Of a DNA stretch of 35,062 nt, positions 1 through 35,062 are shown piece after piece. The stretch spans positions 1 through 35,062 of IMG/VR virus record IMGVR_UViG_2548876964_000015. One strand, 5' to 3'. This DNA is from a virus (lineage: Duplodnaviria; Heunggongvirae; Uroviricota; Caudoviricetes). The position numbers were made by a program, and so were the translations under genes. The notes under the pieces were generated by a model. That model saw only the letters and a list, made by a program, of their open reading frames with translations. It made no database searches and was not told the DNA's origin. The first letter of the stretch is position 1. Each line of letters starts with the position of its first letter.

Positions 1-5
1 CAAGT

Positions 6-80
6 GATGGTGTAGCTCAGCGGTAGAGCAGTTGGCTGTTAACCAACTGGTCGGTAGTTCGAATCCACCCACCATCGCCA
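6..80 (+). tRNA. tRNA-Asn (anticodon GTT)
   Basis: Cloverleaf read by eye: acceptor 6-12 GATGGTG pairs with 70-76 CACCATC; D-stem GCTC/GAGC; anticodon stem GTTGG/CCAAC with loop CTGTTAA (GTT at 38-40); T-loop TTCGAAT; CCA encoded at 78-80. One A-C mismatch in the T-stem. Confidence 0.75.
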
Positions 81-85
81 CTTTA

Positions 86-172
86 GGGGAGTTAGTCCGT
101 AGGGGTAGCGGGGTAGACTGTAAATCTACTGTCATTGCGACTCGGGTGGTTCGACTCCATCACTCCCCACCA
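86..172 (+). tRNA. Type-II (long variable arm) tRNA-like gene, anticodon GTA (Tyr-like); D-arm irregular
   Basis: Acceptor 86-92 GGGGAGT pairs with 162-168 ACTCCCC; perfect anticodon stem GTAGA/TCTAC with loop CTGTAAA (GTA at 120-122); 15-nt variable arm; T-loop TTCGACT; CCA at 170-172. The D-arm does not fold canonically, so it may be a pseudo-tRNA. Confidence 0.5.
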
Positions 173-176
173 CATT

Positions 177-252
177 GCCGATTTAGCTCAGTTGGTAGAG
201 CAGTCGCTTTGTAAGCGAATGGTCAGCGGTTCGATCCCGTTAATCGGCACCA
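177..252 (+). tRNA. tRNA-Thr (anticodon TGT)
   Basis: Acceptor 177-183 GCCGATT pairs with 242-248 AATCGGC; D-stem GCTC/GAGC; anticodon loop TTTGTAA (TGT at 210-212); T-loop GTTCGATCC region; CCA at 250-252. Confidence 0.8.
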
Positions 253-257
253 ACATA

Positions 258-330
258 ACAGGTAAGAGCATTCTCCCTTATGGGGCCTGGCTTAAATGCA
301 TCGAGTGCTCTTACCGTTGTGATGAAGTGC
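258..330. repeat. Hairpin unit copy 1 (10-bp stem GGTAAGAGCA / TGCTCTTACC, 261-270 with 306-315)
   Basis: Shares the 20-nt block ACAGGTAAGAGCATTCTCC and the tail CCGTTGTGATGAAGTGC with the copy at 899-990. Confidence 0.45.
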
Positions 331-599
331 AGATCTTAGAAGCAACCAGAAGATAAGCATCTGGCTTCACAACATAAACCGCAGGAACGACCAATAAACG
401 GTAGTCCGTATGGAGAACACCCCGTTGAGGAAGAGGCCTGGCCGGAACCGTAACCGGCGACTGGTAATGTGTGTAAATGGAGCGAAATATGTGGGCGTTT
501 AACGGGATACGGGTTGTAACAGCGATTATTAACGGCGAACTTAAGTATTCACGTTTCGAGACAAATGAACGTGATGGGAAATGTATTGGTGTGCGGTTA

Positions 600-725
600 G
601 TAAGAGAATACGCATAACAACTACAACGTTGAGAACACTGGCGTAACGGGGTCATATCCCAATCTACGAATAAATGTTGCGTTGCCGCGTGACAACCAGT
701 GTTCTCAACATTGTGGTGAATGCAC
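600..725. repeat. Hairpin unit copy 2 (14-bp perfect stem GTTGAGAACACTGG / CCAGTGTTCTCAAC, 628-641 with 686-699)
   Basis: Loop carries GTAACGGGGTCATATCCCAATCTAC, also present at 922-946; tail CATTGTGGTGAATGCAC resembles the tails of copies 1 and 3. Confidence 0.45.
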
Positions 726-898
726 AGGCTGATGTGCCGCAACTACAGTAGTGCGCGCTTTGCGGGGCTTGCTACAACCCTGTGTCGGAGTTCAGCACCG
801 ACCATCACAGTTTGATTCTCTGGCATGAGCATAACGCTGAAATAAGTCCAGTCTGGTGCGGTCTGATCACCCGCCGTTAGCTCCACGAAACGGAGCAC

Positions 899-990
899 GT
901 AACAGGTAAGAGCATTCTCCTGTAACGGGTTCATATCCCAATCTACAGGTCCACCAAGAATGCTCTTTCCGTTGCGGTGAATGCGGCTAA
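899..990. repeat. Hairpin unit copy 3 (11-bp stem AAGAGCATTCT / AGAATGCTCTT, 908-918 with 957-967)
   Basis: Same 5-prime block as copy 1 and same loop block as copy 2; tail CCGTTGCGGTGAATGCGG. Confidence 0.45.
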
Positions 991-1125
991 GCGCACGCGG
1001 GGAAATGGTTATATCTGTCCATTATTTCTCCTTGTTTCCACGTCCACGGTGGATAACCAGCCAAAGGACACCGGGAGGAACCCGGCACCGCAGCTTTTTT
1101 ATTCGTTAAATAATGGAGTGAGAGG

Positions 1126-1344
1126 ATGCAGAACAATCCGAACAAATGTCGAACGCTATGGGTGCGGTTATATATTTATGCCGTCCTCTGTTTGATTGTG
1201 TCACTGGTTCTGTATGTTTGGCTTTTGCCAAATATGATCTCATCTAACAGCACAATACTTGTATTGTTGGGAGTCCTTCTCGCGCTCATTTACCCGGCTT
1301 TCGCAGTAGTCTTTTTTCGTGAAAAAAACCAGGAAATTAATTAA
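1126..1344 (+). CDS. Small hydrophobic membrane protein (72 aa, two predicted helices)
   Basis: ATG preceded by GAGAGG; strongly hydrophobic sequence; stop overlaps the next start (TAATG), implying translational coupling. Confidence 0.55.
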   Translation: MQNNPNKCRTLWVRLYIYAVLCLIVSLVLYVWLLPNMISSNSTILVLLGVLLALIYPAFAVVFFREKNQEIN

Positions 1345-2171
1345 TGAAAAAAACGTTGATTAGTGCAGCGATTATTTTGGGTTCTTTATGTCTGACCGGA
1401 TGCGATCGGGTAGAGCCAGGTAACGTAGGGATCAAAGTAAATAAGCTGGGGGATGATAAAGGTATCGGTGAAGTAGTTGGCGTTGGTCGCTACTGGACAG
1501 GCTTGAATACTGAAGTTTATATCTTCCCGACCTTTAAGCAAATGAAGACATACGATGAGCCGTTCAGCTTCCAGATGAGCGACGGAACAACCATTGGTTA
1601 CCACATCGGCGTAGCCTACAAGGTTGATCCAGCAAAAGTCACAACGGTATTTCAGACCTATCGCAAAGGTGTAGATGATATTACTGATACCGATCTACGC
1701 CAGAAGGTTGCAGATGCTCTGAACCGATTAGCCAGCAAAATGACCACCGACAAATTTATCGACGGTGGCAAATCTGAATTGCTTGATGCAGCCCTTAAAG
1801 ACATTCAGGAAGAAATGACGCCAATCGGCATTCAGGTGATGAGCCTCTCTTATGTAGGTAAGCCAGAATACCCGCCAACAGTTATTGACAGTATTAACGC
1901 CAAAGTCACGGCAAACCAAAAAACCCTGCAACGCGAGCAAGAGGTCAAACAACGTGAAGCAGAGGCCAACATGCTGCGCGCGGAAGCTGCCGGACAGGCT
2001 GATGCTATTCGCACAAAAGCCCAGGCCGAAGCTGATGCCATTCGTTTACGTGGTGAAGCTCTGCGCCAGAACCCCGGTGTTATGGACTTGGAAGCGATCA
2101 ACAAATGGAACGGTACATTACCGCAGTATATGACCAGTAATACCGCTGTTCCGTTTGTTCCGGTGAAATAA
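1344..2171 (+). CDS. SPFH/band-7 (stomatin-prohibitin-like) lipoprotein
   Basis: N-terminal signal peptide with lipobox LTGC; band-7-like core; C-terminal Ala/Glu/Gln-rich coiled coil. Domain call by eye only. Confidence 0.7.
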   Translation: MKKTLISAAIILGSLCLTGCDRVEPGNVGIKVNKLGDDKGIGEVVGVGRYWTGLNTEVYIFPTFKQMKTYDEPFSFQMSDGTTIGYHIGVAYKVDPAKVTTVFQTYRKGVDDITDTDLRQKVADALNRLASKMTTDKFIDGGKSELLDAALKDIQEEMTPIGIQVMSLSYVGKPEYPPTVIDSINAKVTANQKTLQREQEVKQREAEANMLRAEAAGQADAIRTKAQAEADAIRLRGEALRQNPGVMDLEAINKWNGTLPQYMTSNTAVPFVPVK

Positions 2172-2198
2172 AAGCGTAAGCAAAATTGGCAGTAATCC

Positions 2199-2274
2199 GG
2201 CCCTTTAGCTCAGTGGTTAGAGCTGGCGACTTATAATCGCACGGTCACCGGTTCAAGTCCGGTAGGGGCCACCA
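2199..2274 (+). tRNA. tRNA-Ile-like (anticodon TAT)
   Basis: Acceptor 2199-2205 GGCCCTT pairs with 2264-2270 AGGGGCC (one G-T); D-stem GCTC/GAGC; anticodon loop CTTATAA (TAT at 2232-2234); perfect T-stem ACCGG/CCGGT; CCA at 2272-2274. Confidence 0.75.
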
Positions 2275-2548
2275 TATTTGGTTGTAACACGGCGTCTGGC
2301 ACATGCGTCGTTAGCGGTCTGGTGACGTTAAAGGGGTAACCTTTCCCCTAGCTCAGGCAACAAACCAGGTAGCCGGAATGTGCAAGCCCCGTTCATAGCG
2401 TCGGACTGCGGATTCACCATCCTGGCGATTCGGTGTGACAGCCGGGAAGAGTCCGGCGCATTAATCCTGATTTTCTGGTGATGACTCATATCGTTAGGAG
2501 TGATTTGAGTATGCCGATTATATCTGACATTCAGCACGCCTGGGTGGA

Positions 2549-5001: not shown

Positions 5002-5086
5002 TAAACTACCATCGAACGCCAGACTATTGATCTTCCTGTTGTTCAGGCTTATAGTTCCTACGTCGTAGTAAATTCTGCGACCGGGT

Positions 5087-5107
5087 TTGACAGCCTGAAT
5101 GTACATG
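5087..5107 (+). promoter_or_regulatory. Candidate antisense target pair a1/b1 (TTGACAG 5087-5093, GTACATG 5101-5107)
   Basis: Exact reverse complements of the two 7-mers inside the c4-like RNA (CTGTCAA 5225-5231, CATGTAC 5212-5218). Confidence 0.5.
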
Positions 5108-5146: not shown

Positions 5147-5174
5147 TCCGTAAACCACGTTACGCCCGAATTAT

Positions 5175-5251
5175 GGTGGGGCGTGATGGGGAGGCTTCGG
5201 CCTGCTGGTTTCATGTACGCCAGTCTGTCAACCCCGTCACGTCCTGCCACC
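5175..5251 (+). ncRNA. c4: c4-like antisense repressor RNA candidate (77 nt)
   Basis: 5-prime GGTGGGGCGTGATGGGG can pair over about 17 bp (with G-U pairs) with 3-prime CCCCGTCACGTCCTGCC, leaving a 3-prime ACC tail; internal region exposes CATGTAC and CTGTCAA, complementary to repeats upstream (5087-5107) and downstream (5255-5290, the latter overlapping the icd ribosome-binding site). Confidence 0.55.
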
Positions 5252-5254
5252 TGT

Positions 5255-34590: not shown

Positions 34591-35062
34591 TGAACCGCCC
34601 CGGAAATCCTGGAGACTAAACTCCCTGAGAAAAGAGGTAAAACAGGATGACTAAAAAATACTCGTTTTTCCCCCGAAGTCCGTCAGCGGGCGATTCGTAT
34701 GGTTCTGGAAAGTCAGGATGAATATGACTCACAGTGGGCGGCAATTTGTTCCATTGCCCCAAAGATTGGCTGTACGCCGGAGACTCTGCGTGTCTGGGTT
34801 CGCCAGCATGAGCGGGATACCGGGGGCGGTGATGGTGGGGCTCACCAGCGCTGAACGTCAGCGTCTGAAAGAGCTGGAACGTGAAAATCGTGAACTGCGC
34901 CGCAGTAACGATATCCTTCGCCAGGCTTCCGCTTATTTTGTCGAAGGCGGAGTTCGACCGCCTCTGGAAAAAAATGATGCCACTGCTGGATAAGCTGCGT
35001 GAGCAGGTACGGGGTCGGACCGGTTGCAGCGAACTGCATATTCGCCCCGTCAACGTATTACC
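34591..35062 (+). mobile_element. IS3-family insertion sequence, left end (runs off the window)
   Basis: Terminus TGAACCGCCCCGG at 34591; orfA-type HTH and leucine-zipper segments; A7 slippery run at 34968-34974; second-frame ORF starting [11 protein letters not shown] continues to the window edge. Confidence 0.7.
34647..34993 (+). pseudogene. IS3-family orfA interrupted by two single-base frameshifts
   Basis: ATG frame stops after 24 codons; HTH segment ([20 protein letters not shown]...) is in the +1 frame and the zipper segment ([33 protein letters not shown]) in the +2 frame. The shifts fall in an A6 run (34653-34658) and a G4 run near GGTGGGGCT. Confidence 0.6.

What the first reader, a model, noticed from the sequence alone, without database searches (positions are those of the whole stretch)
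86..172. Extra type-II tRNA-like gene (anticodon GTA) between tRNA-Asn and tRNA-Thr
P1 is described as encoding three tRNAs (Asn, Thr, Ile). Here a fourth tRNA-shaped sequence with a long variable arm, a perfect anticodon stem and encoded CCA lies between Asn and Thr, but its D-arm is non-canonical. It may be a functional Tyr tRNA, a decaying pseudo-tRNA, or a tRNA-like processing signal.
Basis: seen in the sequence. Interest (0 to 1): 0.4.

Follow-up and report, generated by a model that had tools for sequence, protein, structure and literature searches.

The report
Phage-type tyrosine tRNA in P1-like plasmid
The extra gene is a real tyrosine tRNA of a type widespread in phages (phage T5 carries a tested one); it sits in a swapped-in three-tRNA cassette of a P1-like plasmid and is already annotated in public databases, so it is ordinary.

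Summary
Window 86-172 (+) is a genuine tRNA-Tyr(GUA) gene. ARAGORN calls it at exactly these coordinates and Rfam's tRNA model scores it 41.9 bits (threshold 29). The odd D arm is real: two extra bases lie between U8-A9 and a 4-bp D stem. This is not decay. It is the hallmark of a large phage-specific tRNA-Tyr family found in about 1,500 GenBank phage records, including T5-, T4-, rV5- and FelixO1-like phages. Across 37 distinct members, 99.4% of stem positions pair and 17 of 24 pairs show compensatory changes (0 of 500 shuffles match). T5's tRNA-Tyr belongs to the family. It is recorded as becoming an effective amber suppressor after an anticodon swap, and it rescues T5-like phages from retron-Eco7, yet it fails Rfam's threshold. 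In P1-like plasmids the gene lies in an Asn-Tyr-Thr cassette swapped into the otherwise 98-100% P1-identical, C1-repressed ban operon. It occurs in 269 of 5,426 complete E. coli genomes, always on plasmids, and RefSeq already labels it tRNA-Tyr. Tyrosine codon use in the window equals the host's, so codon compensation does not explain it; buffering against host tRNA-Tyr depletion is the likeliest role, by inference only. Novelty is low.

The parts
86..172 (+). tRNA-Tyr(GUA) gene, 87 nt including the encoded CCA; class II (long variable arm), phage-type D arm
   Evidence: ARAGORN; Rfam RF00005 41.9 bits; family model R1 99.3 bits; 100% identical to the annotated tRNA-Tyr of NC_050153 and of many E. 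coli plasmids
86..92 (+). acceptor stem 5' strand GGGGAGU, pairing with 162-168 ACUCCCC; G1-C72 first pair
   Evidence: sequence; all 7 pairs covary in the family
93..96 (+). U8-A9 (93-94) plus a 2-nt extra linker G95-U96 before the D stem: the non-canonical feature
   Evidence: cmscan insertion; UA invariant and a 2-3 nt linker present in all 58 parsed family members
97..111 (+). D stem CCGU/GCGG (97-100/108-111) with 7-nt loop AGGGGUA (101-107) carrying A14-, G18- and G19-like bases
   Evidence: the second pair changes C-G to U-A in T5-like copies. Part of this arm was fixed by the search pattern
113..129 (+). anticodon arm: stem GUAGA/UCUAC, loop CUGUAAA, anticodon GTA at 120-122
   Evidence: 3 of 5 stem pairs have double-sided changes in the family; the loop is identical to that of E. 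coli tRNA-Tyr
130..144 (+). long variable region UGUCAUUGCGACUCG with 3-bp stem 131-133/139-141
   Evidence: all 3 pairs covary; identical to the T5 tRNA-Tyr variable arm
145..161 (+). T arm GGUGG-UUCGACU-CCAUC
   Evidence: identical to the T5 tRNA-Tyr T arm
169..172 (+). discriminator A73 (169) and encoded CCA (170-172)
   Evidence: sequence; A73 in 58 of 58 family members, CCA encoded in 34 of 58
6..80 (+). tRNA-Asn(GUU), first gene of the Asn-Tyr-Thr cassette; 9 differences from the P1 Asn gene and 4 from an N4-like phage Asn gene
177..252 (+). tRNA-Thr(UGU), third gene of the cassette; 10 differences from the P1 Thr gene
2199..2274 (+). fourth tRNA of the same transcription unit (P1 trnI homologue), here with anticodon TAT instead of CAT

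Best explanation
Window 86-172 encodes a functional, phage-type tRNA-Tyr(GUA). It is the middle gene of an Asn-Tyr-Thr cassette that recombination has placed in the P1 ban operon, replacing the Asn-Thr pair of classical P1. It is most likely transcribed from the C1-repressed Pban promoters about 650 nt upstream (outside the window), so mainly when the prophage-plasmid is induced. It would be cut out of the polycistronic transcript by host tRNA-processing enzymes, charged by host TyrRS, and would read UAC and UAU. Because the phage's tyrosine codon demand equals the host's, its most likely benefit is to keep tyrosine decoding going when host tRNA-Tyr is depleted or cleaved during infection, for example by retron-Eco7 PtuAB, as shown for the T5-family homologue. 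Shown here: the gene, its fold, its family, its conservation and its genomic setting. Inferred: expression, charging and the anti-depletion role. I put about 0.85 on 'functional tRNA-Tyr' and about 0.4 on 'main selective benefit is countering tRNA-Tyr depletion'.
For: Two independent detectors call it. Bacterial TyrRS identity elements are all present: A73, U35 within GUA, G1-C72 and a long variable arm (sequence; identity set from PMC9976931). It belongs to a family with about 1,530 GenBank phage records and more than 120 IMG/VR contigs. In 37 distinct members, 99.4% of cells pair, 17 of 24 pairs have double-sided changes, 0 of 500 shuffles reach this, and slid registers give 43-54%. The odd D arm is conserved in all 58 parsed members, with a C-G to U-A compensatory change. 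T5 tRNA-Tyr is a member, with identical variable and T arms (R1 93 bits). The T5 record states that anticodon replacement makes it an effective amber suppressor, and T5/SP15 tRNA-Tyr rescues phage from retron-Eco7, which depletes host tRNA-Tyr (PMC11555353). Context: the upstream 1.45 kb is 98-100% identical to P1, including the Pban promoters and C1 operator at 59-60 of 60 nt. The P7 record says this operator controls the tRNA genes. There is no sigma-70-like promoter in window 1-2400 and no convincing + strand terminator after the tRNAs. Tyr codons are 30.6 per 1000 in the window against 30.7 in a K-12 sample, whereas ATA is 2.3-fold and ACA 1.4-fold enriched.
Against: There are no expression, processing or aminoacylation data for this copy or for any P1-like copy. 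The Rfam score is well below that of the neighbouring tRNAs (41.9 vs 66-70 bits), and some database annotations of family members read 'tRNA-Pseudo-GTA' or 'tRNA-OTHER'. A few P1-like IMG/VR variants carry stem-breaking changes (L155, L207, L145; 4 of 29 loci), so constraint may be relaxed in some plasmids. The anticodon loop is identical to the host's, so any anti-nuclease effect would have to work by supply or through the body of the tRNA. In Azam et al., E. coli tRNA-Tyr under the phage promoter rescued equally well, and Pban has not been shown to be a strong promoter. Codon usage was computed on crude ORFs covering only 35 kb of the element.
Confidence: 0.8

Rival explanations
1. It is a functional tRNA-Tyr, but its selective value is a plain boost to translation or codon supply for phage genes, as usually proposed for phage tRNAs, and not counter-defence.
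For: The neighbouring tRNAs fit this logic: ATA is 2.3-fold and ACA 1.4-fold enriched in window ORFs relative to a K-12 sample, matching the Ile and Thr(UGU) tRNAs. Phage tRNA arrays in general track phage codon use (discussion in PMC11555353).
Against: Tyrosine codon frequency is the same as the host's (30.6 vs 30.7 per 1000; TAT 0.86-fold, TAC 1.18-fold), and Tyr has no rare codon. Classical P1, P7 and D6 do without the gene.
Confidence: 0.3
2. It is a decaying pseudo-tRNA: a hitch-hiking remnant in the cassette whose damaged D arm prevents function.
For: It has the lowest Rfam score of the four tRNAs. Four nucleotides separate the acceptor and D stems instead of two. Some records label family members as pseudo. 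A few plasmid variants have stem mismatches.
Against: The same D-arm layout is conserved in all 58 parsed members across T5-, T4-, rV5-, FelixO1- and phAPEC8-like phages and in phage-like contigs from Firmicutes and Bacteroidota genome bins. There is strong compensatory covariation in every stem, and all TyrRS identity elements are intact. The T5 member is experimentally functional although it scores below the Rfam threshold. The window copy is the best-scoring member tested.
Confidence: 0.05
3. It is a tRNA-like processing or punctuation element whose role is to direct RNase P or RNase E cleavage of the ban-operon transcript, not to be charged.
For: It lies in a polycistronic unit 4-5 nt from the flanking tRNAs. 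T5 and T4 tRNA regions contain stable tRNA-like RNAs of unknown function.
Against: A processing signal would not need a conserved GUA anticodon, an A73 discriminator, G1-C72 or an encoded CCA, all of which are kept. The flanking canonical tRNAs already provide such cleavage sites, and P1 has the same operon without it.
Confidence: 0.05

Closest known systems
Bacteriophage T5 tRNA-Tyr(GUA) (NC_005859 35340-35427) and the tRNA-Tyr of T5-like phage SP15
   Same: Same architecture: U8-A9 plus a 2-nt linker, a 4-bp D stem and a 7-8-nt D loop ending in GGUA. The variable arm (UGUCAUUGCGACUCG) and T arm (GGUGG-UUCGACU-CCAUC) are identical, as are A73 and the encoded CCA. Family model scores are 93 (T5) and 99.3 bits (window).
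   Different: The acceptor and anticodon stems differ by compensatory changes, the D stem is CUGU/GCAG instead of CCGU/GCGG, and the D loop is 8 nt instead of 7. T5 expresses it from its own strong early promoter in a lytic phage; here it sits in a repressor-controlled operon of a temperate phage-plasmid. Function has been tested for T5 and SP15 but not for this copy.
E. coli tRNA-Tyr (tyrT/tyrU/tyrV)
   Same: Class II tRNA with anticodon GUA and an identical anticodon loop CUGUAAA. It shares A73, G1-C72 and a similar variable arm (CGUCAUCGACUUCG vs UGUCAUUGCGACUCG), and the number of nucleotides between acceptor and anticodon stems is similar (21 vs 20).
   Different: The host tRNA has a 3-bp D stem directly after U8-U9 and an 11-nt D loop. 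The phage type has two extra 5' linker bases, a 4-bp stem and a 7-nt loop. Its T loop is UUCGACU instead of UUCGAAU.
tRNA cluster of the bacteriophage P1 ban operon (trnA-Asn, trnT-Thr, trnI-Ile)
   Same: Same position between dmt and ban, downstream of the C1-controlled Pban promoters, in near-identical relatives of the window. The flanks are 98-100% identical to P1.
   Different: P1, P7 and D6 have Asn and Thr 2 nt apart with no Tyr gene and no remnant of one. The window's Asn and Thr genes differ from P1's at 9 and 10 positions.
Asn-Ser(UGA)-Thr cassette of N4-like phages (e.g. vB_EcoP_3HA13)
   Same: Identical layout and spacing: Asn, about 5 nt, a class II tRNA, about 4 nt, Thr. The Asn gene differs at only 4 positions.
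   Different: The middle gene there is a canonical 90-nt tRNA-Ser(UGA) unrelated to the Tyr family (R1 34 bits), and the Thr gene is more diverged (15 differences).

Membership tests
tRNA (Rfam RF00005 / cloverleaf) | Covariance-model score at or above the curated gathering score | tested here: met
   41.9 bits against a gathering score of 29
tRNA (Rfam RF00005 / cloverleaf) | Four-arm cloverleaf with 7-bp acceptor, 5-bp anticodon and 5-bp T stems, supported by covariation in homologues | tested here: met
   99.4% of cells paired, 17 of 24 pairs with double-sided changes, 0 of 500 shuffles
tRNA (Rfam RF00005 / cloverleaf) | Exactly two nucleotides (8, 9) between the acceptor stem and the D stem | tested here: not met
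   Four nucleotides (UAGU, 93-96), with cmscan inserting 'gu'. The same 2-3 nt excess is present in all 58 parsed family members
Bacterial tRNA-Tyr (substrate of bacterial TyrRS) | Anticodon GUA with U35 | tested here: met
   GTA at 120-122; identity role of U35 from PMC9976931
Bacterial tRNA-Tyr (substrate of bacterial TyrRS) | Discriminator A73 and G1-C72 first pair | tested here: met
   A169, G86-C168; A73 in 58 of 58 and G1-C72 in 53 of 58 family members; identity set
Bacterial tRNA-Tyr (substrate of bacterial TyrRS) | Class II long variable arm | tested here: met
   15-nt variable region with a covarying 3-bp stem
Bacterial tRNA-Tyr (substrate of bacterial TyrRS) | Host-type D arm (3-bp stem, about 11-nt loop) | tested here: not met
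   4-bp stem and 7-nt loop with a 5' linker, compared with the E. coli structure given
Bacterial tRNA-Tyr (substrate of bacterial TyrRS) | Tyrosylation by TyrRS and use in translation | not testable with these tools
   Only indirect evidence: the T5 homologue becomes an effective amber suppressor after an anticodon swap (record note) and rescues phage in an anticodon-dependent way
Phage tRNA-Tyr family typified by T5 tRNA-Tyr | UA + 2-3 nt linker + C(C/U)GU / A-R-N(N)-GGUA / GC(G/A)G D arm, together with a GGUUCGACUCC T arm | tested here: met
   R1 99.3 bits, though the window copy was in the training set
Phage tRNA-Tyr family typified by T5 tRNA-Tyr | Restricted to phages and phage-plasmids, not host chromosomes | tested here: met
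   0 of 273 places in E. coli genomes are chromosomal. There are 8 hits in 185,579 species genomes, 6 of them in metagenome-assembled bins; 5 of the 8 lie in arrays of 4-13 tRNA genes. IMG/VR gave more than 120 hits, capped
Phage tRNA-Tyr family typified by T5 tRNA-Tyr | Protects phage from a defence that depletes tRNA-Tyr (retron-Eco7) | not testable with these tools
   Shown for T5, SP15 and a Klebsiella phage tRNA-Tyr only (PMC11555353)
P1 ban-operon tRNA cluster | Located between dmt and ban, downstream of the C1-controlled Pban promoters | tested here: inconclusive
   The window begins 5 nt before tRNA-Asn, so the promoter lies outside it. In records 99.4-100% identical to this part of the window (L001, L254) the promoter and operator are 58 of 60 identical to P1's and lie about 650 nt upstream. 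ban lies downstream
tRNA pseudogene | Broken stems, lost identity elements, or lack of conservation | tested here: not met
   All stems are intact, identity elements are present, and the family is under strong structural constraint

The most novel reading that the evidence does not exclude
The family-wide rearranged D arm may be an adaptation that lets phage tRNA-Tyr escape host nucleases that recognise the body of host tRNA-Tyr, such as retron-Eco7 PtuAB, while it is still charged by TyrRS. The rearrangement is a type-I-like 4-bp stem and 7-8-nt loop preceded by 2-3 extra bases, inside a class II tRNA, conserved in phages infecting hosts of several bacterial phyla. On this reading, temperate P1-like and ~109-kb phage-plasmids acquired the Asn-Tyr-Thr cassette as a portable counter-defence module that switches on with prophage induction. 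This reading is not excluded. The anticodon loop equals the host's, so any resistance would have to lie elsewhere in the molecule, and Azam et al. themselves raise structure as a possible factor.
Probability: 0.15. Interest if true: 0.55.

Novelty: already known. Interest (0 to 1): 0.25.

Why it matters
For annotation, the lesson is that 'P1 has three tRNAs' does not hold across P1-like plasmids. The Tyr gene is in 269 complete E. coli genomes, against 627 with the P1-type Asn-Thr junction, so roughly 30% of those with either form carry it. A low covariance-model score or a 'pseudo' label is a systematic artefact for this phage tRNA-Tyr family, since the validated T5 gene fails Rfam's threshold. 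Biologically, the gene adds a temperate phage-plasmid example to the emerging picture of phage tRNAs as insurance against defences that deplete tRNAs. It also shows that tRNA cassettes are exchanged as units between unrelated phages, with breakpoints inside or between tRNA genes. None of this changes current understanding; it is a clean example of known phenomena.

Tried and rejected
1. Single-sequence folding gave a z-score of -0.67, which is uninformative for a tRNA, so I relied on covariation instead.
2. The first IMG/VR pattern (GACTGTAAATC...GGTTCGANTCC) was too generic and returned tRNA-Tyr genes of every kind. I replaced it with a family-specific pattern.
3. MAFFT misplaced the gap for the four members with a 3-nt linker. 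They were left out of the pair counts.
4. I looked for a Watson-Crick partner for the extra linker bases. The best signal was last linker base against position 26 (MI 0.40 bits), but the combinations (U/G, A/G, C/U, U/U, U/A) are not consistently pairable, so no tertiary contact can be claimed.
5. An anticodon-switched tRNA-Ser was rejected. The N4-like Ser gene in the same slot and the P7/D6 'Ser(UGA)'-like gene score only 34 and about 20 bits on the Tyr family model.
6. A cryptic Tyr remnant in P1, P7 or D6 was not found.
7. Codon compensation is not supported for Tyr.
8. Literature searches for a description of the fourth tRNA in P1-like elements or in phage Ro157c2YLVW found nothing. The P1 genome paper (PMC523184) is not held, and no paper describing the unusual D arm was found.
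9. The direction of the cassette swap (gain here or loss in P1) could not be resolved.

Full report
OBSERVATION. The window is part of a P1-like phage-plasmid. Its first 2.4 kb are 99.4% identical to Escherichia phage vB_EcoM-Ro157c2YLVW (Punavirus), and the first 260 bases are 100% identical to plasmids such as pO111_2 of E. coli O111:H-. ARAGORN finds four tRNA genes: Asn 6-80, Tyr(gta) 86-172, Thr 177-252 and Ile(tat) 2199-2274. Rfam's tRNA model matches 86-169 at 41.9 bits, above the gathering score of 29 but well below the 66-70 bits of the other three. The sequence shows a 7-bp acceptor stem, a perfect 5-bp anticodon stem, the loop CUGUAAA, a 15-nt variable region with a 3-bp stem, a T arm with loop UUCGACU, discriminator A and an encoded CCA. 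After U8-A9 come two extra bases (G95, U96), then a 4-bp D stem CCGU/GCGG with a 7-nt loop AGGGGUA (the MFE fold gives the same D stem). E. coli tRNA-Tyr has a 3-bp D stem directly after positions 8-9 and an 11-nt loop.

WHAT IT IS. A 96-nt query around the gene hits 1,530 GenBank phage records, 1,476 of them over at least 80% of its length. The hits include T4-like phages (RB6, RB51, CC31), rV5- and phAPEC8-like phages, FelixO1-like phages, T5-like phages, Klebsiella jiaodaviruses and Enterococcus phages, at 76-92% identity. Annotations vary: tRNA-Tyr, 'tRNA-Pseudo-GTA', 'tRNA-OTHER' or nothing. From these and the GenBank loci I parsed 58 distinct sequences.

All 58 share the layout acceptor(7) - UA - 2-3 nt linker - C(C/U)GU - A-R-N(N)-GGUA - GC(G/A)G - N26 - anticodon arm - variable arm - T arm - acceptor - A73. 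The pattern itself fixed GGTAGCRG, TGTAAAT and GGTTCGACTCC, so conservation of those pieces is by construction. The acceptor stem, anticodon stem, variable arm, linker and the 5' half of the D stem were free to vary. In those free regions the stems change extensively yet stay paired, for example acceptor GGGAGAA/TTCTCCC, GTGTCGT/ACGGCAC and GCATGGT/ACCATGC. On a 37-sequence alignment, 99.4% of cells form standard pairs against 82.5% in shuffles. Seventeen of 24 pairs have changes on both sides, no shuffle in 500 reaches any of the observed measures, and sliding the 3' partners by 1-3 columns drops pairing to 43-54%. The D stem proposed by cmscan is supported by a C-G to U-A double change in the T5-like members. 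This is therefore a structurally constrained tRNA family, and the unusual D arm is its signature, not damage.

LINK TO EXPERIMENT. Phage T5's annotated tRNA-Tyr (NC_005859 35340-35427) is a member. It has the same D-arm layout (UA-UU-CUGU-AAGUGGUA-GCAG) and its variable and T arms are identical to the window's. It scores 93 bits on the family model, against 46 bits or less for any other tRNA tested. The T5 record notes that replacing its anticodon yields an effective amber suppressor. Azam et al. 2024 (PMC11555353) show that retron-Eco7's PtuAB effectors deplete host tRNA-Tyr, and that the tRNA-Tyr of T5 and SP15 rescues infection in a manner that depends on the anticodon and the stem-loops. 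T5's tRNA-Tyr does not reach Rfam's gathering score, EcoM2's does not either, and RB6 and MiataMamis score 30.2 and 29.9 bits. At 41.9 bits the window copy is the best-scoring member examined.

IDENTITY ELEMENTS. In bacteria, tyrosine identity rests on A73 and U35, with a G1-C72 first pair, in a class II tRNA with a long variable arm (PMC9976931). The window gene has all of these. In the family, A73 is present in 58 of 58 members and G1-C72 in 53 of 58. The anticodon loop is identical to that of E. coli tRNA-Tyr.

GENOMIC SETTING AND ORIGIN. Classical P1, P7 and D6 have tRNA-Asn and tRNA-Thr 2 nt apart and no Tyr gene. The family model finds no remnant of a Tyr gene in them. In three relatives that carry the cassette (Ro157c2YLVW, pO111_2, pCFSAN004177G_03), the 1.45 kb upstream is 98-100% identical to P1. 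This stretch includes the two Pban promoters and the divalent C1 operator, at 59-60 of 60 nt. Identity then falls to 0.83-0.88 inside tRNA-Asn. The Tyr gene is an insertion relative to P1. Identity recovers either at tRNA-Thr (pCFSAN004177G_03, whose Thr is P1-like) or about 150 nt beyond Thr (window type). This is a cassette swap, with breakpoints within or between tRNA genes, inside an otherwise conserved operon.

The same Asn-Tyr-Thr cassette, 97-98% identical, sits in unrelated ~109-kb phage-plasmids: p09EL50 of E. coli O104:H4 and a Shigella sonnei plasmid. N4-like phages have the same layout with a tRNA-Ser in the middle. Across 116 distinct contexts of the family, tRNA-Asn is the commonest upstream neighbour (28 contexts); Asn-Tyr-Thr occurs 17 times and Asn-Tyr-Asp 8 times. 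I could not determine whether P1 lost the gene or this lineage gained it.

EXPRESSION (INFERRED). There is no sigma-70-like promoter in window 1-2400 on either strand and no convincing + strand terminator after the tRNAs. The nearest promoters are the C1-repressed Pban promoters about 650 nt upstream of tRNA-Asn in the near-identical records. The P7 record states that this operator controls the tRNA genes and ban. The gene should therefore be transcribed chiefly on prophage induction, as part of a polycistronic RNA, and be excised by host tRNA-processing enzymes. The short spacers (5 and 4 nt) and the encoded CCA are compatible with this.

WHY KEEP IT. Using the same crude ORF procedure on the window and on 49 kb of E. 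coli K-12, tyrosine codons are 30.6 and 30.7 per 1000. ATA is 9.3 against 4.1 and ACA is 11.8 against 8.5. Codon compensation is thus plausible for the Ile and Thr(UGU) tRNAs but not for Tyr. Given the T5 precedent, the best-supported reason is insurance against loss of host tRNA-Tyr during infection. This is an inference, which I rate at about 0.4. A generic boost to translation remains a serious alternative at about 0.3.

HOW COMMON AND HOW NEW. The gene is in 269 of 5,426 complete E. coli genomes, always on plasmids (0 of 273 places are chromosomal), and the listed records annotate it as tRNA-Tyr. The P1-type Asn-Thr junction is in 627 genomes, so roughly 30% of genomes with either form carry Tyr. 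In PLSDB, 237 plasmids hold at least 80% of the cassette. RefSeq NC_050153 lists it as tRNA-Tyr(gta). Only 8 of 185,579 species-representative genomes match the family pattern. Six of these are metagenome-assembled bins, and five of the eight lie in arrays of 4-13 tRNA genes, so the family is essentially phage-borne. I found no paper that discusses the fourth tRNA of P1-like elements or the unusual D arm. The gene itself, however, is already in the databases and its family is experimentally characterised.

VERDICT. The gene is real and very probably functional, but it is already known. The residual interest lies in the family-wide D-arm rearrangement and in whether it matters for evading tRNA-targeting defences.

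Noticed in passing
window 2199-2274: The P1 trnI homologue has anticodon TAT here (loop CTTATAA). P1, P7, D6, Ro157c2YLVW, pCFSAN004177G_03 and all 120 other copies retrieved by pattern have CAT. A private C34-to-T change would turn a lysidine-dependent tRNA-Ile2 into a tRNA-Ile(UAU), or it may be a sequencing error.
   Followed up: partly
L003 2070-2156 (D6), L004 2051-2137 (P7), L252 2339-2425 (p09EL50), L253 2342-2428 (S. sonnei plasmid): An 87-nt class II tRNA-like gene with anticodon UGA lies about 500 nt downstream of tRNA-Thr in P7, D6 and the ~109-kb phage-plasmids. The D6 record says tRNAscan-SE could not call its amino acid. It is absent from the window and unrelated to the Tyr family (about 20 bits on R1).
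   Followed up: partly
L002 about 1612-1690 (P1, just after tRNA-Thr): P1 has a long hairpin after tRNA-Thr whose loop region contains a T-arm-like GAGGGTTCGAATCCCTAC, possibly the remnant of another tRNA. The window has a different hairpin at about 262-327 (GGTAAGAGCA...TGCTCTTACC).
   Followed up: no
window about 1340-2171: Between tRNA-Thr and the Ile tRNA the window carries a membrane-protein plus SPFH/lipoprotein ('serine protease') module that is about 86% identical to genes of Stx2-converting phages, phiP27 and P88. P1 has plp-upl-tciABC at this position. This is a second module swap next to the tRNA cassette.
   Followed up: no
L250 7341-7428 (T5), L133 396-483 (EcoM2), L129 404-490 (RB6), L128 401-487 (MiataMamis): Rfam RF00005 at its gathering threshold misses the experimentally validated T5 tRNA-Tyr and the FelixO1-like copy, and barely passes the T4-like and rV5-like copies (30.2 and 29.9 bits). 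ARAGORN also missed the COW86c and ASO2A copies, which have 3-nt linkers. This family is systematically under-called.
   Followed up: yes
window 6-80 and 177-252: cmscan flags one non-standard pair in the T stem of the window's tRNA-Asn (A-C, where the N4-like and P1 copies have G-C) and one at the top of the anticodon stem of tRNA-Thr. Both genes still score 68-70 bits.
   Followed up: no
window 5049-5101, 5169-5254 and 34930-35049: Rfam finds the P1 immunity-I elements (C4 antisense RNA and its a1/b1 targets), and at the very end of the window an ALIL pseudoknot (Rfam RF01497).
   Followed up: no
L155, L207, L145 (IMG/VR contigs carrying P1-like-type copies of the Tyr gene): A minority of copies of the window's subtype have stem-breaking changes: GGAGA/TCTAC, ACAGA/TCTAC (this one looks like a chimera of two family subtypes joined in the anticodon loop), and an A3-C70 mismatch. 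They may be decaying copies, recombinants or assembly artefacts.
   Followed up: partly
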